DNA of 63,319 nucleotides, filler included, from Octopus bimaculoides (Eukaryota): assembly GCF_001194135.2 (NCBI RefSeq). It is 6 parts of 6 records of this genome, joined end to end, with 100 filler letters (N's around TTAATTAATTAA, not from the genome) between each part and the next. Parts side by side here need not be neighbours in the genome. Positions count along the whole stretch, not along the records: positions 1 to 13,020 come from NC_068988.1; positions 13,121 to 32,185 come from NC_068984.1; positions 32,286 to 49,914 come from NC_068989.1; positions 50,015 to 59,429 come from NC_069001.1; positions 59,530 to 61,583 come from NW_026423446.1; positions 61,684 to 63,319 come from NC_068995.1. One strand, 5' to 3'. The translations under genes and the position numbers were made by a program. Within the stretch, counting starts at the first letter, position 1, and each line of letters starts with the position of its first letter. The notes below the pieces were generated by a model, which worked only from the letters and a program-made list of their open reading frames with translations, did no database searches and was not told where the DNA came from. Shown piece by piece: positions 2,293 to 62,291 of the stretch.

Positions 2293-2372
2293 CCAGAACG
2301 GTCTGATGAGCGTCGAACTTCCTTTCATTCATTAGGAAGTCCAATTCGTGAAACTATTACTAACAGCTCTGG
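2293..2372 (+). ncRNA. Minimal type I hammerhead ribozyme (slightly decayed)
   Basis: Stem I CCAGAACGGT/ACAGCTCTGG (8 of 10 pairs), CTGATGA 2303-2309, stem II GCG..CGT with inner ACTTCC/GGAAGT, GAAA 2350-2353, short stem III with one mismatch, then TA. Confidence 0.65.
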
Positions 2373-2546
2373 ACTGCAAATTAAATGTATTTATTCTGAA
2401 ACAAAATTTCACCTTTATAAGCCAACTTAAATGAGTGATGAGTGCTCTCCCTTGTGAATTGCTACTCTTATAATGACTTGATATACTTCTCTATCTCTCT
2501 CCCTCTCACTCTCTTCTATCTCTCTGTCTCTGTCTCTGCATATTTA

Positions 2547-3340
2547 CAGGGCGTCCTAAAAACCGTATACATACTTTAACAGCTGGTAACTAACTTACTT
2601 TAGAGTTTCCTTTTACTCAACCCATTGGAAATAATGAAGAGAGCTAGATTGAGCTTTACGCAAAGGAAATTTACCCTAAAATGCTACTGGCAGTTTGAAA
2701 ACGCTGTCGAACTTCAAAGACAGCGAAAGAGGGAGTTTCAACCAGATCCACTTACGCAACTTACAATCACTCGAATTAGAGTTAAGTTTGAAGCATATGG
2801 AACTATTCAGAAATATCCATAAGAAACGTTCCGGAAAAGCACGGACATCGACGAGCTCCACCAAGCAAGAATGATTGCTATAAACATATTGCCGGAGTTC
2901 GAGAAAATCAGTGCGACAAACAAATGGCGAGACAGGAGTTGCAAAAATCAAACGTCCACCATATTTTCAAGCACTGTCACTGAAATAGTTACAAAGGGAT
3001 GCTGAAAAGTTCCTGGCTTTAAAGGTATCACGAAAAGCCGGGCTGGAGGCCCAACCTTCTGAGTTCTTTTACAGGGATTAGAAAAACTGAAGAACTGCTG
3101 CAATAAGTGTGTGAATATGAGAGGGGAATATGTTGGAAAAAATCCTAGTTAACTGATTCTCCAGTATTTTCTTTTACCCAATGCCAGGAACTTTTCAGCA
3201 GTCCATGTTCTCAGAAAAGATGATCTGGATTGAAAAGTGGAGTTTTGTGAGTGGTACTTGGCAAGATGTGTAGAAGATGTACACGGTCCAACAAAGATTG
3301 TCTGGGGCATTGGGTTACATTTCAATTAAAAGGTTCAATC
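2547..3340 (+). mobile_element. Tc1/mariner-superfamily transposase remnant, interrupted by a MITE
   Basis: Starts TA|CAGGGCGTCC; encodes RLSFTQRKFTLKCYWQFENAVELQRQ (HTH, homologous to 39452-40387); resumes after the MITE as [23 protein letters not shown]. Confidence 0.8.
2992..3208 (+). mobile_element. mariner-derived MITE
   Basis: TIRs GATGCTGAAAAGTTCCTGGC / GCCAGGAACTTTTCAGCAGTC; interior reads like a mariner C-terminus (GLEKLKNCCNKCVNMRGEYV); inverted relative at 15359-15568. Confidence 0.8.
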
Positions 3341-3343
3341 TGA

Positions 3344-3416
3344 GGTTCTGTGGTGTAATGGTTATCATATCTGCTTTATGCGCAGAATGTAGCGAATTCG
3401 AATGTCGCCAAAACCT
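3344..3416 (+). pseudogene. tRNA-Val(TAC)-derived pseudogene, anticodon now TAT
   Basis: 73-nt cloverleaf GGTTCTGTGGTGTAATGGTTATCATATCTGCTTTATGCGCAGAATGTAGCGAATTCGAATGTCGCCAAAACCT resembling metazoan tRNA-Val(TAC); mismatches in the acceptor and T stems; anticodon loop TTTATGC. Confidence 0.75.
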
Positions 3417-3949
3417 CTGAAAGTTTAATTTTTCATTCCCATCAATATACTTATCAAGGCGGTGCTCCAGCATGATCGCAGTCAAATGACTGAAACAAGT
3501 AAAAAAAATAAAAGAATGATCGTCATAAATGCACCTACAGGGGACATGTGAATCCGTATATTACGAGGGAACATCATTTTAATTTAGCAGGACTTACAGT
3601 ACAGTTACGCACTGGCGTCGATGTAATCGACTATCCCCCTGTCCCAAAATTTCAGGCCTTGTGCCTATTGTAGAAAGGATGAAATGTATAAAAAGGTTTT
3701 ACGGTACTATGACTGGTTTCATTTGAACTTGCTGTGACAATCTGTTATGCCAAATATTGCTGAGGACTGAAAATGCGGAGTTTTACCTCCACGATGTGCC
3801 CCTCCAAGCTACCATAGTAAGGAAAGAACCAACCTTCTTGAGATTTTGTCAAACAGGTGGATTGGAAGAAAAGGTTCAGTAAAATACATTCGACATTCAT
3901 CCAGCTTCATACCACTTCTCGTTTTTATGGAGAATACTTAATATATGAA

Positions 3950-4553
3950 GTTGGTTGTTTTTCCTCGCATTCAGTACTAAATGTGTTTATTTTGGGAAGT
4001 CCAGTGTGTGGCTTTATTCTGTAGTAATGCCCCTTATATAAATATAAACGAATAATTATATTCTTGGGAATAGAAATTTCCCTTATGAATTTTTTTACAC
4101 ACTGGCTTCTTGATAAAATTCTTGTAAAATATTTTTATTCCTTTTTGAATTTATTAATCAAATATATACACGAAATATATTCAATGCTGAATTTTTTTTA
4201 TTCCTGTCTCAACGCGTGTACCAAAACAACCCAGTAGTTTTCCCGCTTCTTTGTTGAAGATTTATACAAATAAACTTCATTCCCTTTGCTTGATCGGATA
4301 CGGAGAGTGTTCGTTTTTGGTAAGGTGAGAATTCTGTTTATTTGTATATGTCTTCCTGAACAATACTATGCTGATGAGCGGAGTCTAGATTCGTTCTGGT
4401 AATCGCGAAATCGGTCGATACATAGTTGAGTTATTTAAAAGAAAGTTGGTCTTCTTCTGTTGGTTGTTTTTCCTCGCATTCGGTACTAAATGTGTTTATT
4501 TTGGGAAGTCCAGTGTGTGGCTTTATTCTGTAGTAATGCCCCTTATATAAATA

Positions 4554-4555
<2 letters not shown>
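3950..4555 (+). mobile_element. Terminally redundant hammerhead-bearing unit (Penelope pLTR or retrozyme-like)
   Basis: About 97-bp direct repeat at 3950-4046 and 4459-4555 (period 509 bp) with one hammerhead just before the second copy; ends in (TA)n. Confidence 0.55.
4365..4426 (+). ncRNA. Minimal type I hammerhead ribozyme
   Basis: Stem I ACTATG/CATAGT perfect; CTGATGA 4371-4377; stem II GCG/CGC; GAAA 4407-4410; stem III TCG-GT-CGA; cleavage triplet AUA. Confidence 0.85.
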
Positions 4556-4590
<35 letters not shown>

Positions 4591-4592
<2 letters not shown>

Positions 4593-5200
4593 TTCGTCTT
4601 TTACTTGGTTGTCATTTGGCTGCGGCCATGCTGGGACACCACCTTGAAGGGTTTTAGACGAACAAATCGACACAGGACTTATATTTTTAAACCTGGTACT
4701 TATTCTATCTTTCACTTTTGCTAAACCACTAAGTTACGGGAATTTAGACACGCAAACACCGTGGTGTCAGGCAGTGGAGGGGGTAAAATACCGGCACAAA
4801 GACACACACACACACATCTTTCATTTTTTATTTGTTTTAGTCATTAGACTGCAACCGTGCTGGGGCACCACCTTCAAGAATATTTAGTCGAACAAATCAA
4901 CTCCAGTCCTTTTCTTTAAAAGCCTGGTACTTATTCATCGGTCAGTTTTATCGAAACGCTAGGACATAAACACACCAACATCGGTTGTCAAACGGCGGTG
5001 GGTGGGGACAAATACAGACCTAAAAAACGAGCAGATAGATATATACATATACGGCGGGCGTCTTTCAGTTTACGTTTATCAAATCCTTTCACAAAGCTTT
5101 GGTTGGCCCGTGGCTATAACAGAAGACACTTGCCCAAGTTGCCACACAGTGGGACTGAAACCGAAACTGTGTGGTTGGGGAGCAAGCTTCTTACGCTTGC
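4591..5200 (-). mobile_element. Two adjacent family A SINEs (3' half plus full copy)
   Basis: Two family A tails (about 4591 and 4816) and one head at about 5130-5200, all reverse complement. Confidence 0.8.
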
Positions 5201-5382
5201 GAATATGTTTTATATATATATTAGTTTATGTATATATTAATATTATCTCAGTTATTAAAACTTTCGATAATTTAAATACGTTAATAGTTACCAGAGGTAG
5301 CAAAATTACACTAAAAAACAAGATATCACAGCCGTTTTACAGGTAGATATACCAAGTTAAAGTGATACATTTTGAGAAGATA

Positions 5383-5739
5383 TGGATAATAATAAATGGA
5401 GCAAAACGCATTTCAATAAAAGTTCCTTTAATTCCTACACATGTTTCAAAATAAATGATAGTGCTTTCACAAAGAAGAAAGAGCTGTTGGGGTTCCTCAT
5501 TTATTTCTCTTCAGGGAGTTCATAATAAAACATGTAATAGCAAGACAAAAACGAGATGATGGGGTAACTTACGAGCAGAGATGTTACATGGTCAGTGACC
5601 GTTAGAAGAAACCTTCTAACGGTCACGCACCCCAACAGCTCTTTCTTCTTTGTGAAAGCACTATCATTTATTTCGAAACATGTGTAGGAATTAAAGGAAC
5701 TTTTATTGAAATCCGTTTTGCTCCATTTATTATTATCCA
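5383..5739. mobile_element. Foldback MITE with about 114-bp TIRs and TA flanks
   Basis: Arms 5380-5493 and 5629-5742 differ at only 2 positions; the spacer holds a perfect 14-bp hairpin (5595-5626). Confidence 0.8.
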
Positions 5740-6215
5740 TATATATATAATTATTAGAACACCAACAACATACGTAGGAATAATTATCACTGACGGTGCA
5801 TTAACGCGTATGTATTTGCGTGTGTATACACATAGTGGATCCGCTTGTTGTAGACAAATGAGGGGGCCGCAATTCCGAAATTTCTTGCCGAACAACCTGG
5901 ACAGATGATTTGTTTATCGTAACCAAATGTGTGTGCTCTACATTCGCCAGCTATCTCCACCAAATCGGCATGTCCCGTACAGGTCCACAGTGTGCTACGC
6001 GTCGGATAGCCAAATGATCGCATGCAAAGCAACATGAGATGAACTACATTGACCAAGAATGCGACGCACCGTCTTGTCAGGGAAACGAAACCACTGCCTT
6101 GCGATAGTGAGTGCGACAGCCTAATCTCTAGGCCATGCGTTCCTACTTGTGTATGCATACATGCACGTACAAATATATATACACACACACATGCACACGC
6201 ATATATAGATGTATG

Positions 6216-6491: not shown

Positions 6492-6536
6492 ACTGCCTTT
6501 ATGGCAAATTGAATGAAATACAGTAGCTTGTTTACG

Positions 6537-8102
6537 GATTGTTTACACGGCTGGATTGCTGCGTTGTACAGCGACATCGAATCTGTCGTCAAACTGAACG
6601 GTTTCCTTTCGAAGCCATTCAGGATCGAGCACTCAGTGCGTCAGGGGTGTCCCTTGTCTCCGCTTTTGTATATGTTAGCTCTTGTGCCATTGCTGCGGAA
6701 GTTGGAGGCATTAAGGGGCGCGTCGCATGATCTATGGTGTGGAAAAGGAGCTACGGAGTACGCGGATGACATCTCCATCATCGTGGCGGATGAGGGCCAG
6801 CTTCCAGCGGTGGAAGTGGCCATCAAAAGTTACAAGGCGGTGGCAGGAGCAAAAGTTAACAAGGACAAGTCGATCGGTTTGCAGCTCGGCACCTGGAGAG
6901 GCAAGCCGATGCCGTCCAATAACGTCGTGGGGCGACGTCCTGTTAAACTGCTCGGAGTCTGGTTTGCGCCAGACCTCCAGATAGAGAAAAATTGGAGTGA
7001 GGTGGCCAGCAAGGTGACTGCTCTAACGCAGACTTGGTCTGAGCGGGTGTTATCCTTGCTAGGAAAGGCGGAGGTGGTGCAGATGTTCATAGTATCGGTT
7101 ATCATCTACCGTCTGACCGTGGTGCCTTGCCCCGATTTGTGGCTGAACAAGTTGGAAAGAATCCTTTTGCGCTTTTTGTGGAAGGGTGGAAAGCCACTCG
7201 TGAAGCGCTCTGTCTGCTGCCAGAAACCGCTAAAGGATGGGCTAGGGATGCCTTGGCCGAGGATGCGAAAATTCGCGTTAAGGTTGAGGCATCTCTGGCT
7301 TTACCTGAATGGAGAGCAGGTGTGGTCACCGCACGTCCGGTTCTACCTTCCGCAATTAACGTCCTTAACGGACGTTGGTAATTGGATCAAGCAGAGACCT
7401 AGGCTAGGGGACCGGCAATTGGAGTGCCGACAGGCACTTCAGCTACTCTCTCGGGCGGGCAATGCCGGCAATAGGAGTTCCACCGCAGATTTTTATAGCG
7501 GGTTAGTAGAGTTTAAGTCCGAAGACGCCTTGTTGGAGACCCTGGGCTACGATGAAAATCAGTTGATCGACCTGTTCCGGAGAACTTTCGGGCGCAGGTA
7601 CCTGGACAATTACCAGAAATCCCTGGCTTGGCAGTGCTTTCGTGCGGCGTTACCTTATCGTGATAAACTGTCAAGGCACAGAAGTGCCGTCTCGCTGACG
7701 TGTCCGAGGTGCGGGCTGGTCAGGGAAACCGTCTTGCACGCATTTGTGGAATGTCCGGAATTAACGGGACTGATAGTTTTCGCAGAACAACTGTTGTCAT
7801 CGATGGGAAGAGTACAGCTATCAGCTGAATCTATCATCGAGATTGTGCCGCCTCCTTCTCTTAACAGGGAAAGGAAGGCTTGCTTTTTCTGCAAAGTAGC
7901 CATACTGAAAGAAAGAGTATGGAAGACGCGTGTGAGAGGAATAGTGACGGGTACCGTTGTATCTGGCCAGGGGTTGGTTAACTTTTTTAGTTACCACCTC
8001 AGGAGTAAAATCAGGCTGGAGAAGAGGTACCTGTTACGAGAGAGATTCATGAGAAGATGGAAGCCTGTGCCGAGAAAGCTGGGAGTGTCTGACTCCAGGT
8101 AA
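6537..8102 (+). CDS. ORF2 C-terminal part: reverse transcriptase and C-terminal CCHC zinc finger
   Basis: Uninterrupted frame with VRQGCPLSPLLY, YADD, LLGVWF and CPRCGLVRETVLHAFVEC; the ATG at 6513 lies outside the element. Confidence 0.9.
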   Translation, partial: DCLHGWIAALYSDIESVVKLNGFLSKPFRIEHSVRQGCPLSPLLYMLALVPLLRKLEALRGASHDLWCGKGATEYADDISIIVADEGQLPAVEVAIKSYKAVAGAKVNKDKSIGLQLGTWRGKPMPSNNVVGRRPVKLLGVWFAPDLQIEKNWSEVASKVTALTQTWSERVLSLLGKAEVVQMFIVSVIIYRLTVVPCPDLWLNKLERILLRFLWKGGKPLVKRSVCCQKPLKDGLGMPWPRMRKFALRLRHLWLYLNGEQVWSPHVRFYLPQLTSLTDVGNWIKQRPRLGDRQLECRQALQLLSRAGNAGNRSSTADFYSGLVEFKSEDALLETLGYDENQLIDLFRRTFGRRYLDNYQKSLAWQCFRAALPYRDKLSRHRSAVSLTCPRCGLVRETVLHAFVECPELTGLIVFAEQLLSSMGRVQLSAESIIEIVPPPSLNRERKACFFCKVAILKERVWKTRVRGIVTGTVVSGQGLVNFFSYHLRSKIRLEKRYLLRERFMRRWKPVPRKLGVSDSR

Positions 8103-12516: not shown

Positions 12517-12551
12517 GTGGGTCGCGTAAGAGTCCATATTCCCTTCCATAT

Positions 12552-12645
12552 CGGCTAACTCTGATGAGCGTAAAGTTATATAATCGGTTTGTTACCTAAC
12601 AGTTCATTGTATTATTTACGCGAAACCAGTTGGTAAGATCAGCCG
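12552..12645 (+). ncRNA. Minimal type I hammerhead ribozyme
   Basis: Stem I CGGCTAACT/AGATCAGCCG; CTGATGA 12561-12567; stem II GCGTAAA/TTTACGC perfect; GAAA 12622-12625; stem III CCA-GT-TGG; cleavage triplet GUA. Confidence 0.88.
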
Positions 12646-13020
12646 TGATGGATATTTAACAGTATACTTTTCGGATAAACCATTAAAACAGGGCAAACAT
12701 CTCAAGTCGTATACAATTCTATTATAGGAAGAAATTCAAAATCTTACAGATGTTTCTGGGACATCACTGAGTATGGGATATTCCGTCACCAGAGACAAAT
12801 AGAGAAAAAAATAGGGAAAATGAGAATATATATATATATATGTATAAACATAATTAAGGGATCAGCAAACATTTGCTTCACCACATACCGAAGTTCAGAA
12901 ATAGCAGCTAAAAAAGCTGAGACTCCAACAGATAGCATTACTTGTAACTCACAAAGGCAAAAACAAGAAGAAAAATCAAATGAAAACTAACCATTCGAAG
13001 TTAATCATAGACGCGTATAT

Positions 13021-13120: not shown

Positions 13121-13156
<36 letters not shown>

Positions 13157-13516
13157 GTTAGGAAGAGTATCAAGCCATAAAATCTATGTTAAAATAGAAC
13201 AATTGAATATGACATGGACTCCTATATTATGTAGGAGGACAGTAACTCAAAGTGTAAGTCATCTTAGACTTTAATGACCCATCCAACCCATCCCAGCATG
13301 GAAAGCAGACATAAAATGATGAAGATGATGATCGGAATAATGATTTTGGTGACGATGACAACAATGACTATATGTATGTGCAAGTGGTAACAACTCATCA
13401 CCAACCTCCATTTTCTCATGACAGAGTGGGAAGGGTGTTTATATTGAAATTTAAGGTAAAAGTGTAAACTGCTGTTTATTTTTGTTTAACTTCTGTTTTC
13501 ACTTCTTTATTTCCAG

Positions 13517-13599
13517 TTTACCTTGTCATATTATGTCATCCATCACCAGTTCCAGCTCTTGAAGAATCTTCCTGGACAAGATGCCTCTCACAAGATTAA
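13517..13599 (+). CDS. Possible terminal coding exon of an unidentified gene
   Basis: Long pyrimidine tract ending TTTCCAG, then xYLVILCHPSPVPALEESSWTRCLSQD*, followed by repeat-poor AT-rich sequence; no homology recognised. Confidence 0.25.
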
Positions 13600-13903
13600 A
13601 CCTACTTCGTATGAAAATGAACACCAATTTCTTTAGGCTCAAGTAATTTACAATCCTGCACATTTTTCAAACTCTAAATAATTTACAGGTTTTTTTACAC
13701 TTCATTAGGCTAAAAAATACAAAATGGAAATAAGGAACATTGAAAGCAAACACAAACATTAATTTGAAAGAGTGTGACTTCTGGGCCATGCTTTATATAC
13801 TTCATGAAAGTATATAAACACTGTATATACTTTCATGAAGTAGGGTATATTAGTTTTAAACTGCTTTACTTTGCTTATGTCACTGTTATTACAATAAATT
13901 GCA

Positions 13904-13951
<48 letters not shown>

Positions 13952-13960
13952 GCTCTCCCC

Positions 13961-14139
13961 TCTGGAGATGTCATCTGGAGATGTCATCTGGAGATGTCAT
14001 CTGGAGATGTCATCTGGAGATGTCATCTGGAGATGTCATCTGGAGATGTCATCTGAAGATGTCATCTGGAGATGTCATCTGGAGATGTCATCTGGAGATG
14101 TCATCTGGAGATGTCATCTGGAGATGTCATCAGGAGATG
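13961..14139. repeat. 13-bp minisatellite (TCTGGAGATGTCA), about 13-14 copies
   Basis: Direct inspection; one G>A variant unit and a degenerate last unit. Confidence 0.95.
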
Positions 14140-14989
14140 ATTAAACTTGAATTAATCATTGGGAAGACAATGAAGCAGAAAGAAATGTCAGACCCATTGC
14201 TAACTCTAATATATCTCTCAACATCATTTGTTTATATATTAATCCTATCTAATAATTAATCGAAGAATTAATTAATAATGCACTAGACAGCATTTGGGGT
14301 TAATTTGAAATGTAACGTAAGGTACATCTTGTTGGTAAACACTCTATTTTAGCTTTACTCTGAAAATTAAACATTATGATTACATTCGGGGGCTGTGGGC
14401 AAAAAAAAATGGGATTGATCTTCTTAAGCCTTATTAGGTTAGATTGGTGTAGCTATGTTGAGATTTTTATAAACTATGGAAGACTATAAGCTACTAATTT
14501 CTCTGTAAACTGGACAAAGGATGAGTATTCTTTCTCTGATGAAAGTCTAAGAAGACTAAAAACAAGTCAGATCATTTCTACTTTTACCTACATCACACAG
14601 AGAAATAAAATTTGTGATGTAACTGCTTTCTTTACTTTTCATAGTGAGGTTAAAATTGGATATTTGTTAAGATATATTATATTTCATATCCAAAAACACC
14701 CTGGAATACATTATCAATTAACTACATCAGTACATGCACTGTTATATGAATTAGACACACCACTTTAGCTAAATCTGACTTCGTACACATTATAAATAGA
14801 TATAAGCTATTAATCTTTCTATTAAGAGATGAGGTTTCTTTTTCTAATGAAAATGTAAGAAGATCAGAAACTGGTTAATTTGATCCCACTTTTTCTGCTT
14901 CCAGGGAGATAGAACCAGTAGTGAAACACCTAATTTACTTTTGTTAGCCAGGATAAAATTGTATGTTTATCAAAACAAAATAAGCTTAC

Positions 14990-15320
14990 ACTGGCATTCC
15001 ATCTGTTACGATGATAAGGGTTCCAGTTGATCCAATCAACAGAATAGCCTACTCATGAAATTAACATGAAATTAACAGGCTGAGCACTCGACAACATGTG
15101 TAACCCTTAACACAGTACTCAAGGAGATTCAGTATGACACAGAATGTAACAAGGCTAGCCCTTTGAAATACAGATACTAATCATTTTTGCCAGCTGAGTG
15201 GACTGGAGCAACATGAAATAGAGTATCCTGTTCAATGGCACAACATGTCACTGGGAATCAAACTCACAACCATGTGATCATGAGTCAAATACCCTAACCA
15301 CTAAGCCATGTGCCTTCACT
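14990..15320 (-). mobile_element. Family B SINE, CpG-decayed
   Basis: Colinear with 1727-2105 but CG mostly replaced by TG/CA. Confidence 0.75.
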
Positions 15321-15358
15321 AAGCTTACACTACATTTCCAGTAATTGACCTGTACCTA

Positions 15359-15568
15359 CAAGGGGGTGCTGAAAATTTCCTGGCTTTGGGTTAAAGAAAA
15401 TACAGGAGGATCAGTTAATTATGATTTTATCCAATATATTACCCTCTCAGATTCACACACTTACTGCAGCAATCCTTCAGTTTTTCTAAGCCCTGTAAAA
15501 GTTCTTGGAAGGTTGGGCTTCCAACCAAGCCTTTTGCAATACCCTTAAAGCCAGGAACCTTTTAGTGG
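15359..15568 (-). mobile_element. mariner-derived MITE
   Basis: TA|CAAGGGGGTGCTGAAAATTTCCTGGC..GCCAGGAACC; reverse complement of 2992-3208. Confidence 0.8.
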
Positions 15569-15569
15569 T

Positions 15570-15850
15570 TAGGGTGTTCAGCTCATGATCATAAGGTCTT
15601 GAGTTCAATTCCAAGCAAGACACTTTATTTCACATTGCTCCAATCCACTCAGCTAACAAAAATGAGTTGTACCAGTAATGCAAAGGGGCAGCCTTATCAC
15701 ATTCGGTGTCATGCTGAGTCTCCCTGAGAAATACATTAAGAGGTACTCATGTCTGTAGAGTCCTCAGCCACTTGCATGATAATTTCATAAGCAGGCTGTT
15801 CTCTATTAATCAGATCAATAGAGTACTCATTGCTGTAACCAATGGAATGG
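15570..15850 (+). mobile_element. Family B SINE, degraded
   Basis: Tail CAGCCACTTGCATGATAATTTCATAAGCAGGCTGTTC matches family B. Confidence 0.7.
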
Positions 15851-15894
15851 CATTCATGTATGTATGTATGTATGAATGAATGAGTGAATGAAAA

Positions 15895-16240
15895 ATGAGG
15901 CAATACGGCTGTGTGGTAAAGAAGCTTGCTTTGCAGCCATGTAGTTTCAGAATCACTTCCATTATAGGACATGGGCAAGTATTTTCTACTTTAGTCCCAG
16001 GCTAGCCAATGCTTTGTGAGCAAATTTGGTAGACAGAAATTGTGAGGAAGTTCATATTTGGCTGCATGTATCTTTGTATTTGTCCCCCACCCCAACTGCT
16101 TGATCATCAATGTTGGTGTCCCTGCAACTTAGAGGTTTGACAAAAAAAATAAAACTGAGTACAAGACTCAGAAATAAGTACTAGGGTCAGTTTGGTTGAC
16201 TAAATCCTTCAAGGCAGTGCCTCAGCATGGGCACATGCTG
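15895..16240 (+). mobile_element. Family A SINE, degraded
   Basis: GGCTGTGTGGTAAAGAAGCTTGC head; AAGGCAGTGCCTCAGCATGG tail. Confidence 0.75.
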
Positions 16241-16409
16241 AAGCACTGCTATGTTGCTGGAACTGCCAGCTTTCTTTGGTCTTGTCAATGACTGATATCT
16301 GTGACTAGATATAGCAGCTGGCTCCACTATCAGCGATGCATACAGAATCTAAGCATCTGTTCAGGCACTGCTCTCGCAAATAGCCAGTGGACTTATTAAA
16401 AAATTGCTG

Positions 16410-17219
16410 CAAATGTCTGCCATCAACAAAGCCAAGGAAGGCTGAAATCTGATAGTTCCAGTGACATAGTGATCAGTTATTGCTCTCCAACAATATAAAC
16501 ACAAGTGCTTTTATGCACCACAAGTCCATATTTTGTGTTCTGACAACACATCGACTTTTAAGAGGGGATAGCTATTACTTTTTGGTATTAATAATGCTTT
16601 TGTTGCAATTAATTATTTTAAATTAAAACCACTGCCTATTTGTGACACCAGTGCCTGAATCCTCCATTGCTGACGGGGAAATCACTTTGCCTAACCTGGG
16701 TGTCTGACACTGACAAGGCCAAGGGAAGCTGAAATCACATGATCTAGAAGTCCCAGCAATGATAGAGGAGGATTATCTTCTGCTAGCAATATAAACACAA
16801 GTGCTTATATGCACCACAAGTTCATATGAGAAGTTCTCTCTTGGTAACTATCACAGTATTCTGTGCTCTAACACAATATCTATTTTTAAGTAGGGATAAA
16901 TATTACCTTTTGGTATTAATGTCACTCCTGTCACAATTAATTGTTTTTTTAATAAACTCACGGGCTATTTACAACACTGGTGCCTGAAAAGACACTGAGA
17001 TTTTATATGTATCAATGGCAGGTTAATTGGCTGCTATGTCTAGCTGCAGATGTCTGCCATTGACAAGGCCAAGGAGGGTTGAAACCGCATGATCTGGCAG
17101 TTCCAGCAGTGTAGCAGATGGTTATTACCTGCCAGTGATATAAGCATGAGTGCTTTTATACACAAGTTCGCTCATGATAAATAAAGCAACACATTCTAAC
17201 AACATATCCACTTTCAGTG

Positions 17220-17220
<1 letters not shown>
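16410..17220 (+). repeat. Old 300-350-bp repeat, three diverged tandem copies (two more at about 21770-22130)
   Basis: Shared blocks TGACAAGGCCAAGG..TGAAATCACATGATCT, ATATAAACACAAGTGCTT and TTTAAG(A/T)GGGGA(T/C)A. Confidence 0.7.
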
Positions 17221-17253
<33 letters not shown>

Positions 17254-17608
17254 ATTATAAAGGTTTATAATCCAAGCTGTGTCCTTGTGAAGCACATCTG
17301 CATGTTCACATTAATCCATGGTATGTACAGAGATGCTTAATTTTGTATGTTTTATACGTAGTGATTGAAATTTTTAGTGAATTCAATTTGCAAAGTAATT
17401 ACATATCAAAATACAAGACTGGACAAAATTTGGTATATTTTTGATTCCATGTTACATATGTTTCTTTACAAGATAGGAGTCTTTGTCTGAGGAATTACAG
17501 ATAGAAGATTCTGTACATGCTTTTTCGATATGAATACCTTTGTGATTCCAATATCTTAATGAAACATGTGTAACACAGAATTAAAAATATGCCAATTTTT
17601 TTTTGTGT

Positions 17609-17623
17609 TCTGTTTATATATAT

Positions 17624-17666
<43 letters not shown>

Positions 17667-17845
17667 TATATATATATACACATATATATACACATATATA
17701 TATACATATACATATATATATACACATATATATATACATATACATATATATATACACATATATATATACATATACACATATATATATACATATACATATA
17801 CACATATATATATACATACATATACATATACACATATATATATAC

Positions 17846-17896
<51 letters not shown>

Positions 17897-18230
17897 CATA
17901 TATATATACATATATATATACATATATATNNNNNNNNNNNNNNNNNNNNNNNNNNNNNNNNNNNNNNNNNNNNNNNNNNNNNNNNNCATATATATATACA
18001 CATATATATATACATATATATATATACATATATATATATACACATATATATATACATATATATACACATATATACACATATATATACACATATATATATA
18101 CATATATATATACATATATATATACATATATATATATACATATATATATACATATATATATACATATATATATATACATATATATATACATATATATATA
18201 CATATATATATACATATATATATGTATGTA
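17609..18230. repeat. Compound (TA)/(CATATA) microsatellite with internal gap
   Basis: Direct inspection; source of the overlapping Y/I/H ORFs. Confidence 0.95.
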
Positions 18231-19174
18231 CATACGTGCATGTACGTATGTGTATGTACATCTGGATGTATGCATGTATCATGTATCTACCTATCTGTCA
18301 ATCTATCTATCTATGTATGTTTGTATGTATGCATTTGTTCCCATCACCACCTACTGATAACTGGTATTTGCTTACAGCCCCATATCCTAGTGGCTCATTG
18401 AAAGAGACCAATAGAATAAGTAACAGAATTTTAAAAGTAAGTACTAGGGTTGATTTGTTCAATTATAACCCTTCAAGGCCATGTCCCACTATGGTTGCAG
18501 TCCAATGACTGAAGCAAGTAAAAGATAAAAGACAAAAATCATATTTTTTTGTATTATCAGATACTCTAATAACATTAGAAACATAAAAGTAAAACCATTC
18601 AACTTAAGTAACAGTTAAATTAATATAGTACAAGATGACAAGTAGTGGAAATCAAACCACAATGATTTGAAAATGACAGTCTGTCAATGAAAATGAGATA
18701 TATCAGGTAAGATAAGGTTATCAATTAGATAAATGGCTTTCTTTGAATGCAGTCTATATTGATTGAAATGCTTTGTCTCAGATCTAGGAGTATTTCAATA
18801 CAACTAACATTTTGACCCTTCTAGAAAGTAAACAACTGCTCAACACTGAAATTTTTCTGACTTGTAGGATACTTACAATGCCCAGGATTCCCAAATAGCC
18901 ATCTAGTGCTAAGCTTGACATTGCTTAAAACTTGAATAATCAAATGAGAACTAATGTTTTCAGCATAACTGAAGACAGATAATTCCTTTGATATAGTTTT
19001 ACCTAATTAAGAGGGGTAAATATTTCAAGAGAGGTAACTGGCATAACTAGTGTAGGTTAAGGTGGTGTTCCAGCATGGCCGAAGTCAAATGACTGAAATA
19101 AGTAAAAGAATAAAAGAATAAGAGTCGCTTGCATTTCTTTGAAATAAATAACATTTTTTACTTTAGTTTTTATC

Positions 19175-19371
19175 TTTAACTATTATCTTTTTGCTTGTTT
19201 CAGTCATTGGACAGCAGCCATGCTGGAATCAAACAAATCAGTCCCAGTACAATTTATTTTTCTTAAGACTGGTACTTATTCTATCGATCTCATTTGTCAA
19301 ACGGCTAACTTACAGAGATATAAACAAACCAACACCGGTTGTCAAGTAGTGGTGGAAGACAAACACAAAGA

Positions 19372-19422
<51 letters not shown>

Positions 19423-19550
19423 TAGGCTTTTTCAGTTTCTGCCTACCAAATTGACTCATAAGGCCCAAGGCAATAGATGACTCTTGCCCAAGGTGCCACA
19501 CACAGACTGAACCCAAAACCACATGACTGGGAAGCAAGCCATGCCTATGA
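19175..19550 (-). mobile_element. Family A SINE
   Basis: Reverse-complement tail TTGTTTCAGTCATTGGAC and head CACAGACTGAACCCAAAACCACATG. Confidence 0.75.
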
Positions 19551-20351: not shown

Positions 20352-20567
20352 CCTTTTGCTTGTCCAAAGCATTTTCATACATTTGTCCTAAATGTTTATG
20401 CTTGTTTTCAGACTTTTAGTTAGCCCTTGTTTCATATATTTTGAAAGCTTTCCTTTCATGAGTCCCAAGTTACTCTGATGGTTGTAAAAAAATTGGTAAT
20501 GTGTGTCACATATGTAGCCTGGGAAATATATTGTGTATCACATGTGATACACCGGACAGGCAAAGGG
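20352..20567. mobile_element. piggyBac-like (TTAA) MITE
   Basis: TTAA on both sides; TIR CCTTTTGCTTGTCC / GGACAGGCAAAGGG (12 of 14 match). Confidence 0.75.
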
Positions 20568-20690
20568 TTAACCTATCTTTCAAATACTATGATTAAAATC
20601 ATTTAGAAGGAGATAACACAGAAGCTTTTATGTAGTCTCTTGATCTATTAGAAATAGAAGACAGATTCCCCTCAAATCAGGCTAGAGTCT

Positions 20691-22134: not shown

Positions 22135-22310
22135 TTGTAGGTATGGCTGTTTGGCTGCTTCCCAACCACATGGCTTTGGATTCAGTTCCATTACAGCATA
22201 TTGAGCAAGTATCTTTTACTATAGACACAAGTCAACAAAAGCCTTGAGAGAGGACTTGGCTGATGAAAATTGGGAAAGAAGCCCATCATATATATATCAT
22301 ATATATATAT
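22135..22310 (+). mobile_element. Family A SINE 5' half
   Basis: GGTATGGCTGTTTGG..CCAACCACATGG..GAAAGAAGCCC followed by (TA)n. Confidence 0.7.
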
Positions 22311-23202
22311 AATAGACAAGTTAAAATAATGGTCATTACATATAATTCCTTTATTATAACAAATTTTGCTTACAGCTGTTTCCAGTAGTCATTATAGAGA
22401 GGTTTACTCAATTGATATATTGATCAATTGAGGTAAATTGAGAGACTTAAGAAAATTAATGATACCTTCATCAGAGTCATTGCTGGAAATAATGAACAGA
22501 GCACTTGAAGAATGGCTATTGTATGGGGAAAGTGGGGGAAGATTGGGATGTCTAAGTTGAAAAGGTAAAGGTCAGTTACAATGGGGTGCTAGCAATTGAG
22601 GGAGTGGTACTTAGTAGAAGTAGCAGTAATAGTATGAGTAGTAGTATTATTAGTAGTTGTAGTCGTAGGAATATTTGGGACAGTCACAAACATAGGTCAG
22701 CAACATTACCAATATGGTGGTAGTAGTACAAAATATTGAAATTTTACTAATACAATGTAGCCTATTTTAATGTTAAAAAATTGGATGCAAAACATTTTAA
22801 ATCTATATTTTACTCCTCCATTTACAATAGAATCTGGTGAATGTTGATGTTAAAATAAGACACAATTATAAACGAACTTGATTAGAACTGTGACATTTGT
22901 GATTCAGAAATAACTGCTAATCAGACAAGTAAATCACTCTCTGCAGCTAACTAAATTTATCTCTTGGACACATGGTCTAATATTATTCAAACACATCAGG
23001 GGTTTCTATTCTCTCTTATTTCATTTCATTTCAATTCTTTTTTATTTTATTTTAAACATTGTTTCCATTTCATTTAAACAATTTAACTACAATGTTTCTA
23101 TTAAATCAGCTATTTCCTCTGGCCAACAACATAATCTTGTGCTGACAATCATAGCAAAGTGAAAATAGTCACCAATAACTGGTTTGTCATACTTCCAGCC
23201 AA

Positions 23203-23242
<40 letters not shown>

Positions 23243-23939: not shown

Positions 23940-23942
23940 TAT

Positions 23943-23998
<56 letters not shown>

Positions 23999-24153: not shown

Positions 24154-24235
<82 letters not shown>
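23940..24235. repeat. (GA)n/(TA)n compound microsatellite
   Basis: Direct inspection. Confidence 0.95.
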
Positions 24236-39398: not shown

Positions 39399-39399
39399 G

Positions 39400-44117: not shown

Positions 44118-44555
44118 CCAGATTGACCAGATTGCAACGTCTCTTATTTAAATTCTTGTGGAGGGGACGCGTTCCAATGGCTAAGCAGTCAGTCTGTTGC
44201 CAGCATTCTCTGAGTGGCTAATTAGGTATGACGGGAATCCTCATGTGCAGACACACACTTAGGTTACGCCACGTGCAATGATTTCTGGACGGTGAGCGTG
44301 TGTGGGCTCTGTTTGTGAGATTCGTCTTTCCGCAGCTTCTCTCCTTGAAGGAACTGCAGTCCTGGATGAAGAAAAGAGCGAGACTGGGCGCCTGACACCT
44401 GGAATATCGTCAAGCACTCACAGCCCTCTACCTGTCGGACAATGTGATCGGAGGATGTTCCGCTTTAGAAATTTATAGAGGGTTAGTGGTGGGGGAAGTG
44501 CGACGACGTTCTCGGGTAGTCTCTGGACGCTGACGAGAACGAACTGGCTAGGCTG
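44118..44555 (+). mobile_element. Second, older Tx1-like ORF2 fragment
   Basis: RLQRLLFKFLWRGRVPMAKQSVCCQ..LRLRH..VWALFVRFVFPQL aligns by eye to the 6537-8102 protein; three in-frame stops. Confidence 0.85.
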
Positions 44556-44560
44556 TGTAT

Positions 44561-44619
44561 ATGTCACTGATGAACGCCGTGTATGTTTTTACACAGAGCC
44601 AGAAATCCGGATCTGAGAT
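44561..44619 (+). ncRNA. Decayed hammerhead ribozyme
   Basis: ATGTCA-CTGATGA..GAAA-TCCGGA-TC-TGAGAT; the stem II closing pair is A.A instead of G-C. Confidence 0.45.
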
Positions 44620-44682
44620 TATCAAAACTTTTTTGCTAGTTTATTTGTTTATTTATCTTTTCACCTTGTGTTGTATGAATAT

Positions 44683-45069
44683 GTGGAGGCGCAATGGCCC
44701 AGTGGTTAGGGCAGCGGACTCGCGGTCATAGGATCGCGGTTTCGATTCCCAGACCGGGCGTTGTGAGTGTTTATTGAGCGAAAACACCTAAAGCTCCACG
44801 AGGCTCCGGCAGGGGATGGTGGCGAACCCTACTGTACTCTTCCACCACAACTTTCTCTCACTCTCAATTTTACTTCCTCTCTCTGTTGTGCCTGTAATTC
44901 AAAGGGTCAGTCTTGTCACACTGTGTCACGCTGAATATCCCCGAGAACTACGTTAAGGGTAGACGTGTCTGTGGAGTGCTCAGCCACTTGCACGTTAATT
45001 TCACAAGCAGGGTGTTCCGTTGATCGGATCAACTGGAACCCTCGACGTCGTAATCGAGGGAGTGCCAAC
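44683..45069 (+). mobile_element. Family B SINE, full length with TSD
   Basis: A box TGGCCCAGTGG, B box GGTTTCGATTCC; 11-bp TSD TGTATGAATAT (44672-44682, 45070-45080). Confidence 0.93.
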
Positions 45070-50207: not shown

Positions 50208-51500
50208 CGTGTGATTTTGTGTGTATGTATGCACATTTACATGTATATGATATAAAATTCATTTGAACAAAGACAGTCTCGCACACTGAATGATATTAAC
50301 TATCAAGTAACTTTACCTCATTGGCAGGAAACACAAGGTGGGAGAAATTTTATCAATCTATTTTAGCGTCTAATTACTTCTCTATAATTATTATAAGTGA
50401 ACATGGATGTGCCGATTACTTTAATTTCATTTCAATCGATTCTGTTTATAGAAATCACTTAGAAAGAAATAAAACGGAACGTATTTATTCAATTTTGCAT
50501 CTGATTATACTTTTACAGTTTTCCATCTGTCTAATTGCTATCAAATAATAAAACAACTATTTGTACATTATATATACTTAGCCCGCCCATACCGTTCATA
50601 AATAAGTTTATTGAGGATATAAACAGATTTAACGATAGAAACATTTATCTTTTCTTTATCGGTACTTCTTTCTGTATACTACTTTGTTCTCTTAGATTTG
50701 TTGTTTTTATTTTGCTTATTTCGCACCAAGTGTATTTTATATACAACCCACAGTCTGTCACGGCCTAAGAACTTAACACGTATCTTTAATTTGATTAAAT
50801 AAAATATGTAGTAACCACACACTCACACACATACATACACACACACACACACACACACCGCAAACGCTCACAGACAGATCAGGCAGACATTTTTGTAAAG
50901 ATGTATGCCACCCAAAATCTATTCAGCCCTAGCTTCTACAAGGTGTATTTTTCATGCGTTTTTATATTGGTGTCTCGACTATGTTTATTTATGCATATCT
51001 ACACATGTCTTATATGTTTATGTGAACGTGTGTGTATGCATTTATGTATATATGTTTATACATATTGAGATAATGATGCAAATAAACAAATAAACACGCT
51101 TGGGCTTGATATATAAAATATACATACAGACATATATACATGTACGTATATACAGAGATGTATACATAGAGAAAAACCAAAACTGAAAATTTTCAGAAAA
51201 TGAACGTACATGTATCACTATATAGATATTTATAAACCGGTAGATGCCAATCTCTTCACCCTGAAGACAGAGGCCGGTTTTATGTGCATCAACTATTGGT
51301 TGTATATCATTGATTTTTGAAATTCCGAGCTCCCAGAAACAGCTGTCGAACTCGAAATGTCAAGTCTCCTTATCTTAGTTTTCTGTACTTTTTGTACTTC
51401 ATGTAAGTCTGTGGTGTAAATGTGTAAATATATAAACATCTATATAATTATACATGATAATTCTTCTGAATATTTTCAGTCTTTGTATATCCCTATATAT

Positions 51501-56021: not shown

Positions 56022-57488
56022 CACCCAGAACCACGCTAATAGCTTTGGAGTGAAATATAGGATTTCTCGGTTTTCTGTGAATCGATTTTGATAAAGCTGG
56101 TTTTCACACTTTGGCAACACCATTGTTACGTTTTCATTATTCTGTGTAACGACCTTTATTTTTAATTTCAGATTCTACAGTTTTTGGGCGAACCACGCTA
56201 ACAGCTTTTGAATGAAAATAGCCCATTTAGACATTTTTTTTTTCAGAAAATGAAGGGTGATGATACATATCAAGAATACATTGAGTATATATTTAACAGA
56301 AAACCATAATGATATTATAACATTTATTGGCATAATGAACTATTTTGCTACATTTAGCCTTGAAATCTGTCAATTTCTTTGGCTGGATTGCCTCTGCTGC
56401 AGCTTTGATGGTCGCCCATAAGACATCCCTCGACGTAAATTGGCGTCCATCGGCATAAACATCTTGCTTAATGATAGACCAAAAATTTTCGATAGGGTTG
56501 AGATCCAGAGATGCTGGCGACCACACCATCAACCTTTCACCTTGTATGCTGTAAGACCCTAGTATTGTTTAGGTGGTCCTAGCGGAGTGGGAGGGAGCAT
56601 TGTCATGCATGAATACGAGATTCCTTAGAAGTAACAGCGGTATGTCACCTAGCCCCTTCCAGGAGATTTCAGTAGGCGACTGCAGTCAATTTAACCCCTT
56701 CAGGCACCTTGATGGGCCAACAAGTCTGTCCTCAATGACAACAGCCCACAACATGACCTTGTTGACGTCGTAAACGTTGGTGACGCTCATCTCTAAAATA
56801 GACTCAGCCATTTTCCCAACCGTCATGTCGATCAAAGGTCGCCTTGGTTTCGTCAGTGAACAGAACACATCTCATGTCTAACGCCATGTACTTTTGGGCC
56901 CAGATTGAAGCATCAAACTCCTGTGATGGGGCGTTAAAGAAGGCAGTTTCAGGGGTTCTCGCACATAAGCTATGGTCCCGAAGATGCGATTTCTGGTGGT
57001 TTTCGGTACACGAGGAAGACCGGAGGCTTTGCTTGTTTGTCCAGGTTTCCCACGTAACTTGCGGCCAATATTCCTTAAATCCCTAGCTGTCACAGTTTTG
57101 GTGGTCCCACAATCGGATCGTTTCTTCAATGGTGAAGGCTCAGTCAGGAATCGTCTAACCGTGTCCATGTGACGACCTAACGTCTCCGCAATGACATGAA
57201 GAGAGGTGCTTTTAGCAGTTTCCTTGATGATGACAGACTTTTCTTCATCATTAAGGCCTTTTCCACGTTCAATTGTTCTTAGAGAGGAGAGACGCTATTG
57301 GCGTGGTTCACCAAAAACTGAAGAATCTGAAATAAAAAGAAAGGACGTTACACAGAATAAGGAAAACATAACAATGGTGTTGCTTGCTATAGTGTGCAAA
57401 CCAGCTGGGAAAGTTTTATCAAAATCAATTCACAGAAAACCGAAAAATCCTAAATTTCACTCCTAAGCTATTGGCGTGGTTCTGGGTG
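56022..57488 (-). mobile_element. Tc1-like transposon, DD37E spacing (TRT-like), about 190-bp IR/DR TIRs, degraded transposase
   Basis: TIRs 56022-56205 and 57294-57488; VLFTDE, RLRRQQG, FMHDNAPSH, LNPIENFW with 37 residues between the second D and the E. Confidence 0.9.
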
Positions 57489-60100: not shown

Positions 60101-61542
60101 AGTGATTACATATATATATATATANNNNNNNNNNNNNNNNNNNNNNNNNNNNNNNNNNNNNNNNNNNNNNNNNNNNNNNNNNNNNNNNNNNNNNNNNNNN
60201 NNNNNNNNNNNNNNNNNNNNNNNNNNNNNNNNNNNNNNNNNNNNNNNNNNNNNNNNNNNNNNNNNNNNNNNNNNNNNNNNNNNNNNNNNNNNNNNNNNNN
60301 NNNNNNNNNNNNNNNNNNNNNNNNNNNNNNNNNNNNNNNNNNNNNNNNNNNNNNNNNNNNNNNNNNNNNNNNNNNNNNNNNNNNNNNNNNNNNNNNNNNN
60401 NNNNNNNNNNNNNNNNNNNNNNNNNNNNNNNNNNNNNNNNNNNNNNNNNNNNNNNNNNNNNNNNNNNNNNNNNNNNNNNNNNNNNNNNNNNNNNNNNNNN
60501 NNNNNNNNNNNNNNNNNNNNNNNNNNNNNNNNNNNNNNNNNNNNNNNNNNNNNNNNNNNNNNNNNNNNNNNNNNNNNNNNNNNNNNNNNNNNNNNNNNNN
60601 NNNNNNNNNNNNNNNNNNNNNNNNNNNNNNNNNNNNNNNNNNNNNNNNNNNNNNNNNNNNNNNNNNNNNNNNNNNNNNNNNNNNNNNNNNNNNNNNNNNN
60701 NNNNNNNNNNNNNNNNNNNNNNNNNNNNNNNNNNNNNNNNNNNNNNNNNNNNNNNNNNNNNNNNNNNNNNNNNNNNNNNNNNNNNNNNNNNNNNNNNNNN
60801 NNNNNNNNNNNNNNNNNNNNNNNNNNNNNNNNNNNNNNNNNNNNNNNNNNNNNNNNNNNNNNNNNNNNNNNNNNNNNNNNNNNNCATGCATAAAGAGAGA
60901 GACAGACAGAGAGAGACATTGATAGAGTGGTAGAAAGAGAAACACAGCGACAGAGTAAGAAAGATACGAATAAGATATGTAATAAGTAATAACGGGGGGG
61001 GCGGAAAAAATCTATCCGCGTATATATAATACCACAGCGACATCAATTCCTCAATAGACATAAATGAAAAATATCAATATTAATAATATTTATCTGTATG
61101 AAAGGGAGGAGGAGGAGAAGAGAGAGTTAATATAAATGTGTGTGGGGTGGGTGGGTGTGTGCGTGCGCGTGATATAAAGTGATAGAGCAAAATATTAAAT
61201 ATAATATAATATTTATAGATTTATTATTATATAGATTTATTATTATATATATATACATTATATTATTCCTTCCTTTCCTTATAAATAAATTTCCACATCA
61301 ATGGAGTCTCGAAGCAAGAAAGAGAAAAACAATGTCTGGCCTCTTTGTAACGCGTTTGTTCTTTGTTGTTTTTGTTGTCACTGTTATCGTTGTTGTTGTT
61401 GTTGTTGGGGTGGTGGTGGTGGTGGTATCCGTAAGGCCAGCCCTAACTAGGAAGACCTATGACCAAAGCTGATCCAACCGTGCCCATCTTGTGTGTGTGC
61501 ATGTATAGATATATAGATAGATAGAGAGAGAAGGGGAGAGAA

Positions 61543-61577
<35 letters not shown>

Positions 61578-61583
61578 GAGAGA

Positions 61584-61683
61584 NNNNNNNNNNNNNNNNN
61601 NNNNNNNNNNNNNNNNNNNNNNNNNNNTTAATTAATTAANNNNNNNNNNNNNNNNNNNNNNNNNNNNNNNNNNNNNNNNNNNN
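61584..61683. other. Scaffold-join gap with artificial spacer
   Basis: 44 N + TTAATTAATTAA + 44 N. Confidence 0.95.
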
Positions 61684-61684
61684 A

Positions 61685-62000
61685 CTCTTAATTGCTTTAC
61701 CTACTATGGTACTGTCAACTCGGATAGCTGGTCCTTCTGTTGGGTCGACATTCGGTAGACTCTCTTTCTCCCATTCATTCTCTTTATTGAGCAATCTTTC
61801 ATAGTGGCATCTCCAAACATCTTTCCTTGCAGCCTCGTTTAGTGCAAGTGCACCATCATCCATGCGAACACATTTCTCTCCCATGACATCACGATTCTCT
61901 CTCACACAGTCTTGCAACATGAAATACCTCAAGTCCTTGGTCCTCACAGCGCAGAACATTGGCAAATTTTTTCTCATCTGCTTTCCCTCTGGCTAAATAA
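61685..62000 (-). mobile_element. RTE-like LINE ORF fragment (endonuclease-RT linker)
   Basis: DVMGEKCVRMDDGALALNEAARKDVWRCHYERLLNKENEWEKESLPNVDPTEGPAIRVD..KAIKS. Confidence 0.75.
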
Positions 62001-62239
62001 ACCGATTTTAATCAAATGCATTTCCATGTGATGTTGTTATGATTGTGGAATGCGTCGTATATTTATGAGCTTAAATAACACCCATCCTACATCCCCCTAC
62101 AAGAAGACTAACACAACTTCAACTAAAGCGTAAGGCTTTCTTTACCTAATGCTATTATTATACCACCATATGCATTAATATATCCACTAATTGTTTCTCC
62201 TACATCTCTCACACCATGAACTCTTAACATACTCCTCAA

Positions 62240-62291
62240 CATTCTGAAGAGATCTGCCTAACCATTAGGCAAATTGAAACGTGCGTAAATG
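62240..62291 (+). ncRNA. Minimal type I hammerhead ribozyme
   Basis: Stem I CATT/AATG; CTGAAGA 62244-62250; 11-bp stem II with one mismatch and a G.U closing pair; GAAA 62276-62279; stem III CG-TG-CG; cleavage triplet GUA. Confidence 0.75.

What the first reader, a model, noticed from the sequence alone, without database searches (positions are those of the whole stretch)
2293..62291. Dispersed set of unrelated minimal type I hammerhead ribozymes
Seen: four motifs (2293, 4365, 12552, 62240) have the full order stem I - CUGANGA - stem II - GAAA - very short stem III - NUH - stem I, each with different stem sequences; two more (44561, about 51255) are decayed. Known: minimal type I hammerheads with a short, near-palindromic stem III are characteristic of Penelope-like elements and non-LTR retrozymes and are thought to cleave as dimers. 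Inferred: several independent ribozyme-carrying mobile RNA families exist in this genome. No Penelope RT or GIY-YIG ORF was seen in this window.
Basis: partly seen in the sequence, partly recalled or inferred. Interest (0 to 1): 0.75.

Follow-up and report, generated by a model that had tools for sequence, protein, structure and literature searches.

The report
Hammerhead-bearing ends of Penelope retroelements
The scattered self-cutting-RNA (hammerhead) motifs are real and sit in stump-sized copies of eight different jumping-gene families: three are tail ends of Penelope-like retroelements and two are protein-less ~500-base units that likely hitch-hike on them, a known arrangement in many animals, with cutting itself untested here.

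Summary
Real, and mostly known biology. Eight have a self-complementary stem III (7 motifs pass the palindrome descriptor; 0.09 expected in shuffles) and each belongs to a different repeat family with 110-2115 search candidates; 2303 is a degenerate single copy. Three families (12561, 62244, 5514) are 3' ends of Hydra-clade Penelope-like elements: other copies carry RT and GIY-YIG upstream. Two (4371, 44567) are ORF-less closed ~500-nt units with Penelope-style insertion marks, i.e. retrozyme-like non-autonomous elements, almost never in tandem. Three remain unlinked. Hydra elements with hammerheads are already published for an octopus, and this scan noted similar families elsewhere in this genome. 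Dimer cleavage is predicted from palindromes and energies, not shown; RNA reads show no cut ends. Two possible footprints of in vivo cleavage are suggestive only: a subfamily duplication starting at the scissile site (19 of 30 copies, probably one event), and long 4371 copies starting within 12 nt of the upstream cut site (5 vs 1.0 expected, post hoc).

The parts
2291..2370 (+). Degenerate type I hammerhead-like motif, core 2303, predicted cut after 2358; stem III not palindromic; no family found
   Evidence: (single copy)
3950..4570 (+). 1.22 units of an ORF-less closed 509-nt element (direct repeat 3950-4061 = 4459-4570), 3' end running into (TA)n
4365..4426 (+). Type I hammerhead, core 4371, 10-nt palindromic stem III, 6-bp stem I, predicted cut after 4420
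5250..5608 (-).
   Evidence: L255: RT, EN, 3' UTR, same hammerhead
5629..5742 (+). Inverted 5' piece of the same insertion (3' half of the hammerhead and element end)
12534..12678 (+). 3' stump of a Hydra-clade PLE with hammerhead (core 12561, 10-nt palindrome, predicted cut after 12635)
17300..17603 (+).
22310..22680 (-).
44553..44684 (+). Fragment of a second ORF-less closed unit (about 495 nt) with partly decayed hammerhead (core 44567, predicted cut after 44613), between a LINE fragment and a SINE
51162..51500 (+). Old repeat copy with decayed long-stem-II hammerhead (core 51261, predicted cut after 51347) and an inverted piece 51162-51234; no ORF link shown
62002..62467 (+). 3' stump of a Hydra-clade PLE (62063-62467, hammerhead core 62244, predicted cut after 62287) with a short inverted 5' piece (62002-62064)

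Best explanation
The motifs are type I hammerheads at the 3' ends of short, 5'-truncated repeat insertions; three families are Hydra-clade Penelope-like elements and two are ORF-less ~500-nt closed units likely mobilised by Penelope enzymes, and their palindromic stem III is predicted to let two ribozymes pair and cut as a dimer. Shown: motif anatomy, multi-copy families, RT + GIY-YIG upstream in three families, closed units, fixed 3' ends downstream of the ribozyme, (TA)n targets, head-to-head inverted pieces. Inferred: the GIY-YIG domain nicks (TA)n; the RT starts at fixed internal sites 43-260 nt 3' of the predicted cut site, reads through an uncut ribozyme and usually stops early, which is why lone hammerheads litter the genome; a lone copy would cut poorly because stem III adds about no stability as a monomer; cutting would occur mainly when a transcript holds two copies (pLTR-ORF-pLTR or a dimeric unit), possibly helped by the element's protein. 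The window copies are most likely inert remnants.
For: Descriptor versus shuffles. Copy searches. 11 of 65 unique places found with a Hydra-type RT fragment carry the 12561-family hammerhead in sense 1.0-1.4 kb downstream. 5 of 15 loci of the 62244 family have the EN upstream, 2 of them also the RT; 2 of 12 loci of the 5514 family have the EN, 1 also the RT. Hydra motifs CxCX5C, CxxC, CxH and DKT are present, as defined in PMC8557442 section 11. 4371 family: 18 of 39 loci cross the unit junction, 16 of 39 have an inverted piece, 35 of 39 end at two sites, 22 of 32 informative 3' ends abut TATA/ATAT. 44567 family: upstream of one copy equals downstream of another, unit about 495 nt. Six different stem III palindromes among eight motifs; the dimer fold is 8-20 kcal/mol below two monomer hammerhead folds. 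In the 44567 family 89.9% of cells pair, with both-side changes in stem I, II and the palindrome centre.
Against: No cleavage data. The dimer fold beats the free minimum-energy folds only for 5514 (-2.6 kcal/mol), is about equal for 44567, 4371 and 62244 (+0.1 to +3.0) and worse for the rest (+8 to +16; partly my rigid stem I). Covariation in the 44567 family is weak against the shuffle control (5 pairs vs 3.2, 65 of 500; 11 cells vs 5.4, 13 of 500). RNA reads from three runs show no pile-up of ends at either cut site. No ORF link was found for 17487, 22474, 51261 or 2303, and the closed units share no blastn similarity with the 70 RT loci examined, so their partner is unidentified. Pfam did not recognise the PLE proteins; the assignment rests on motifs and on by-eye likeness to the published Hydra-1_Obim protein. 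The closed unit of the 44567 family rests on 2 links among 37 copies.
Confidence: 0.85

Rival explanations
1. The closed ~500-nt units are classical non-LTR retrozymes that replicate through abundant circular RNAs and tandem arrays.
For: Closed ORF-less unit with one type I hammerhead; two places carry two cores in direct tandem or nearly so (L351 two intact cores 521 nt apart; L347 1.41 units); unit size is inside the 51-972 bp range of bioRxiv 10.64898/2026.07.22.740005.
Against: Longest copy found is 1.48 units among the best 40 hits of two long-copy searches; 3' ends sit at two fixed sites away from the cut site; about 100 reads per 12 million on both orientations, no end pile-up, and junction-crossing reads (1-6 per run) are explained by genomic copies. 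Short-read gaps could hide arrays.
Confidence: 0.25
2. The closed units and the unlinked families are pseudo-LTRs of autonomous Penelope elements whose ORFs were simply not sampled.
For: Same insertion marks as the linked families; only 12-60 copies sampled per family; 22474 copies share up to 690 nt upstream; PLE fragments lie near some copies (L186, L225, L226).
Against: For 4371 the sequence on both sides of the ribozyme closes on itself in 18 of 39 loci and no shared ORF flank appears. The nearby ORF fragments lie downstream or inverted and are not joined by shared sequence. This rival stays open for 17487, 22474 and 51261.
Confidence: 0.2
3. The motifs are chance matches or a host-co-opted regulatory set.
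For: 2303 is single-copy and degenerate; one CTGANGA...GAAA match at 29314 lies inside RT-coding sequence and is spurious.
Against: 0 of 300 shuffles reach the observed count; the motifs lie inside mobile-element stumps on four chromosomes (C8, C4, C9, C21, C15 for the five stretches that hold them) and decay like their flanks.
Confidence: 0.03

Closest known systems
Hydra-clade Penelope-like elements, including Hydra-1_Obim of Octopus bimaculoides (Craig et al. 2021, PMC8557442; section 11, passages and Files S1/S2 rows read)
   Same: C-terminal GIY-YIG with CxCX5C linker, CxxC and CxH, DKT motif, (TA)n insertion, hammerhead near the 3' end, inverted 5'-truncated pieces; the RT of the 12561 family resembles Hydra-1_Obim by eye.
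   Different: The published Hydra-1_Obim hammerhead has other stems; none of six short motifs from the window's ribozymes was found in that supplement (line breaks could hide a match). At least three further Hydra families are seen here.
PLE hammerheads with small palindromic helix III (Cervera and de la Pena 2014, PMC4209133; parts 1-2 of 4 read; Lunse et al. 2017 not held, known only through the review PMC6765202)
   Same: Type I topology, palindromic helix III, short helix I, large helix II, many sequence families per genome, mostly lone copies in truncated elements, proposed dimer activity.
   Different: Inserts here are 6-8 nt (8-10-bp dimer helix) and stem II regions reach 85-130 nt; three families have an extra nucleotide before GAAA.
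Metazoan non-LTR retrozymes (Cervera and de la Pena 2020, PMC7229834, passages; Li et al. bioRxiv 10.64898/2026.07.22.740005, parts 1-3 of 5)
   Same: ORF-less unit with one type I hammerhead, low GC, proposed PLE dependence, many monomeric copies.
   Different: About 500 nt, almost never two full ribozymes in tandem, PLE-style fixed 3' ends and inversions; no circular RNA shown.
PAc Poseidon element in vitro (Frangieh et al. 2024, PMC11167929; main text read)
   Same: Two internal RT start sites 3' of the hammerhead that explain the genomic ends; uncut RNA is the main template; AT-rich targets; no RNA-seq ends at the cut site.
   Different: Different clade; its ribozyme needs the protein to cut, untested here.

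Membership tests
Type I hammerhead (PLE small-helix-III variant) | CUGANGA, stem II, GAAA, NUH, closing stem I in order | tested here: met
   weak for 2303 and 51261
Type I hammerhead (PLE small-helix-III variant) | Palindromic helix III allowing a dimer | tested here: met
   8 of 9 motifs fully self-complementary with G-U pairs; 2303 not
Type I hammerhead (PLE small-helix-III variant) | Covariation of stems | tested here: inconclusive
   different stems across families; within the 44567 family modest against shuffles
Type I hammerhead (PLE small-helix-III variant) | Site-specific self-cleavage | not testable with these tools
   no assay; no read ends at the sites
Rfam hammerhead families | Match to a curated model | tested here: not met
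   no hit at E<=10 in 2250-5800, which holds three motifs
Hydra-clade PLE (families 12561, 62244, 5514) | RT followed by C-terminal GIY-YIG, hammerhead 3' of the ORF in sense | tested here: met
Hydra-clade PLE (families 12561, 62244, 5514) | CxCX5C linker, CxxC and CxH, no CCHH | tested here: met
   12561 and 62244 families (absence of CCHH by eye); in the 5514 family only CxxC was matched
Hydra-clade PLE (families 12561, 62244, 5514) | DKT motif | tested here: met
   L080, L097, L261
Hydra-clade PLE (families 12561, 62244, 5514) | N-terminal RWK motif | tested here: inconclusive
   seen only in L035, where that piece proved to belong to another family
Hydra-clade PLE (families 12561, 62244, 5514) | Insertion into (TA)n, inverted 5' pieces | tested here: met
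Hydra-clade PLE (families 12561, 62244, 5514) | Placement in an RT phylogeny | not tested
PLE (families 17487, 22474, 51261; motif 2303) | Contiguity with an RT/EN ORF | tested here: inconclusive
   none in 12, 13 and 17 copies
Non-LTR retrozyme (families 4371, 44567) | ORF-less repeat unit with one type I hammerhead | tested here: met
Non-LTR retrozyme (families 4371, 44567) | Tandem dimers to multimers | tested here: inconclusive
   one place with two intact cores, maximum 1.48 units; gaps may hide arrays; 44567 not searched for long copies
Non-LTR retrozyme (families 4371, 44567) | Abundant monomeric linear and circular RNA | tested here: inconclusive
   low two-sided read cover in ordinary RNA-seq, which can lose small circles

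The most novel reading that the evidence does not exclude
The genome records in vivo hammerhead cleavage of Penelope templates: RT jumped at the cut 5' end to make the 23-30-nt duplication that starts at the scissile site in the 62244 family, and the longest copies of the 509-nt unit come from RNAs cut at the upstream ribozyme while the downstream one stayed whole, as a half-cleaved dimer would leave them. The ~500-nt units would be compact dimer-switched, non-tandem mini-Penelopes and the simplest substrates to test what PLE ribozymes are for.
Probability: 0.2. Interest if true: 0.6.

Novelty: new member of a known kind. Interest (0 to 1): 0.3.

Why it matters
As a catalogue entry it is ordinary: more Hydra-clade Penelope families and two non-autonomous derivatives in a cephalopod. 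It matters a little more because the role of PLE hammerheads is open (PMC8557442 and PMC11167929 both say so), and this genome offers thousands of copies in at least eight families in which junction positions can be counted against the scissile bond. If 5' ends and template switches concentrate there across families, that would be genomic evidence that the ribozymes cut in vivo.

Tried and rejected
Rfam scans: no hammerhead model matched. Pfam on 10 PLE or window fragments: only the window LINE ORF matched. The apparent pile-up of 62244-family 5' ends at the cut site (6 of 30) was an alignment break at a subfamily duplication, not truncation. First-pass 5' ends of the 4371 family are not enriched at the cut site (2 vs 1.0 within 3 nt, P 0.28; 5 vs 2.4 in -14..+3, P 0.10; n=40 with one place counted twice). 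An independent test on full-length 12561-family elements failed: the ORF start behind the ribozyme in L035 belongs to another Hydra family, so that locus does not show pLTR-ORF order for this family. The GIY-YIG fragment near L003 and the Hydra fragments near L005, L167, L067, L186, L225 and L226 are not joined to the ribozyme copies by shared sequence and were not counted as links. One search used a mis-registered structure and was discarded. No family for 2303 by DNA search or 2-mismatch pattern (the second match has no hammerhead 3' half). Sequencing-run search: no RNA holder listed. Lunse et al. 2017 was not held. Literature searches for octopus or cephalopod with hammerhead/ribozyme and Penelope returned 5 and 4 papers; only Craig et al. 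and a count of 235 Rfam hammerheads in giant squid (PMC6962438, passages) bear on it; a five-term search for cut-site template switching returned 0 papers, which is a narrow search. Supplements of the bioRxiv preprint could not be seen and may list relevant families.
Full report
Setting. The window is six stretches of a 2.34-Gb genome; the motifs lie on contigs C8, C4, C9, C21 and C15. The SINE types (recalled) and the by-eye likeness of a retroelement protein to Hydra-1_Obim point to an octopus; this is an inference.

Observation. A descriptor scan of both strands finds seven motifs with core, palindromic stem III and stem I pairing: cores 4371, 12561, 17487, 44567, 62244 (+) and 5514, 22474 (-); 8 cores against 0.09 in 300 dinucleotide shuffles, none reaching 8. 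51261 has the palindrome but one stem I pair; 2303 has a good stem II but no palindrome, and passes a laxer descriptor with 0.037 hits per shuffled window. The motif regions show no mutual blastn similarity. Six different palindromes occur among eight motifs. Monomeric stem III contributes -2.9 to +2.3 kcal/mol, whereas the two-strand fold lies 8-20 kcal/mol below two monomer hammerhead folds; against the free minimum-energy folds it wins only for 5514 and is near even for three others. Rfam does not see them.

Copy number. Candidates of the first look, 40 scored each: 4371, 817; 12561, 2115; 62244, 730; 5514, 1201; 44567, 425; 51261, 110; 17487, 168; 22474, 1067; 2303, 1. These are not copy numbers. 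Best non-self identities are 92-97% for 4371, 12561, 62244 and 5514, 86-91% for 44567 and 22474, and 77-87% for 51261 and 17487. Cores and palindromes are intact in most copies of the young families and decay in the old ones.

Three families are Hydra-clade Penelope elements. Loci of the 12561 and 62244 families carry a GIY-YIG-type ORF ending 0.4-0.6 kb upstream of the ribozyme. An RT fragment from one such locus drew 6078 candidates; of 65 unique places examined, 11 have the 12561-type ribozyme in sense 1.0-1.4 kb downstream and 5 have it inverted 0.7-0.9 kb upstream (many loci gave only 1.5 kb of room). For 62244, 5 of 15 loci have the EN and 2 the RT; for 5514, 2 of 12 have the EN, and L255 shows the full pattern of inverted end piece, truncated RT, EN, 3' UTR, ribozyme and (TA)n. 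CxCX5C, CxxC, CxH and DKT match the definition in PMC8557442 section 11; RWK could not be assigned. That paper's supplement lists Hydra-1_Obim with (TA)n preference and a hammerhead of different sequence. The window itself has no PLE ORF; its copies are 145-470-nt stumps.

Two families are closed ORF-less units. The 4371 element is 621 nt with a 112-nt terminal direct repeat, i.e. 1.22 copies of a 509-nt unit. Of 39 loci, 18 cross the unit junction, 16 have a head-to-head inverted piece, 35 end at one of two ATATA-like sites about 150 and 255 nt after the predicted cut, and 22 of 32 informative ends abut TA repeats. Two searches for long copies gave at most 1.48 units and one place with two intact cores. 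In the 44567 family the upstream flank of 2 copies matches the downstream flank of another, giving about 495 nt; 16 aligned ribozymes keep 89.9% of pairs with some both-side changes, modest against shuffles. No partner element was identified. For 22474, 17487 and 51261 neither closure nor an ORF link was found in 13, 12 and 17 copies, although they show (TA)n ends or inverted pieces.

Mechanism. Shown: anatomy, family structure, ends and targets. From the literature: PAc nicks AT-rich DNA, starts RT at two internal sites 3' of its hammerhead, uses uncut RNA, and its ribozyme needs the protein (PMC11167929); PLE ribozymes are inactive as monomers and weak as dimers (PMC4209133). Inferred here: the same cycle, with early termination leaving lone ribozymes. 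Because inserted copies span the ribozyme, their templates were uncut there or re-joined. Raw RNA reads from three runs (83-127 and 150-207 reads of about 12 million) lie on both orientations with no pile-up of ends, as passive transcription of many copies would give; the libraries may be unstranded and the reads are mostly 85-95% alike.

Possible footprints of cleavage. In the 62244 family 19 of 30 loci carry one or two extra copies of a 23-30-nt unit whose left edge is the first or second base after the scissile bond (my count from the printed rows, two of the 19 are variant forms). This is probably one ancestral event plus slippage, and the unit begins with a small hairpin that could itself promote slippage. 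Among 29 long 4371-family copies, 5 begin within -12..+3 of the upstream cut site against 1.0 expected (P 0.004, window chosen after the fact), but four of the five include 4-11 nt 5' of the bond, three further copies pass it, first-pass ends show no clear excess, and stalling in the ribozyme or the shape of one master locus explains it equally well.

Verdict. The system is published (PLE hammerheads, Hydra in octopus, retrozymes as PLE derivatives), and earlier notes of this scan describe like families elsewhere in this genome (unchecked). New members of a known kind; interest 0.3.

Noticed in passing
window 6513-8099 (+) and about 44300-44550 (+): 529-aa LINE ORF2 piece (Pfam RVT_1 and zf-RVT; L1/Tx1-like by recall); a fragment of what looks like the same family lies just 5' of the 44567 ribozyme.
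   Followed up: partly
window 28461-30531 (+): Broken non-LTR RT with a restriction-like endonuclease-type C-terminus (label recalled); the CTGANGA...GAAA match at 29314 lies in its coding sequence and is spurious.
   Followed up: no
window 39484-40242 (+), 56296-57294 (-), 2604-2960 (+): Tc1/mariner-like transposase remnants (labels recalled from the translations).
   Followed up: no
window 3344-3416 (+): tRNA match at 49.6 bits with several mismatches; likely a pseudogene.
   Followed up: no
window 13121-32185: CpG observed/expected 0.17 against 0.8-1.2 in four other stretches; would fit a methylated gene body.
   Followed up: no
window 13961-14139 and 35891-36773: 13-bp minisatellite (13.8 copies, 98%) and a 237-bp tandem (3.7 copies) of SINE-like sequence.
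   Followed up: no
L353-L370 (for example L359, L354): A further Hydra family whose 3' ends fall about 180 nt inside its own ORF start (through the RWK motif), as in PAc; it has its own palindromic hammerhead.
   Followed up: partly
L106:1091, L116:6703, L124:5304, L125:218, L050:2043, L060:283, L189:908: More hammerheads with palindromic stem III from still other families, found incidentally in fetched loci.
   Followed up: no
L226:457-774 and L149:2424-2568: Copies of different ribozyme families inserted into or beside the same (TA)n tract or locus, in keeping with shared targeting.
   Followed up: no
3' ends of families 4371, 44567, 22474, 5514, 62244: By eye, common 3' ends follow a short CC(T)TATA-like word before (TA)n, hinting at priming by microhomology with the target; not quantified across families.
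   Followed up: partly
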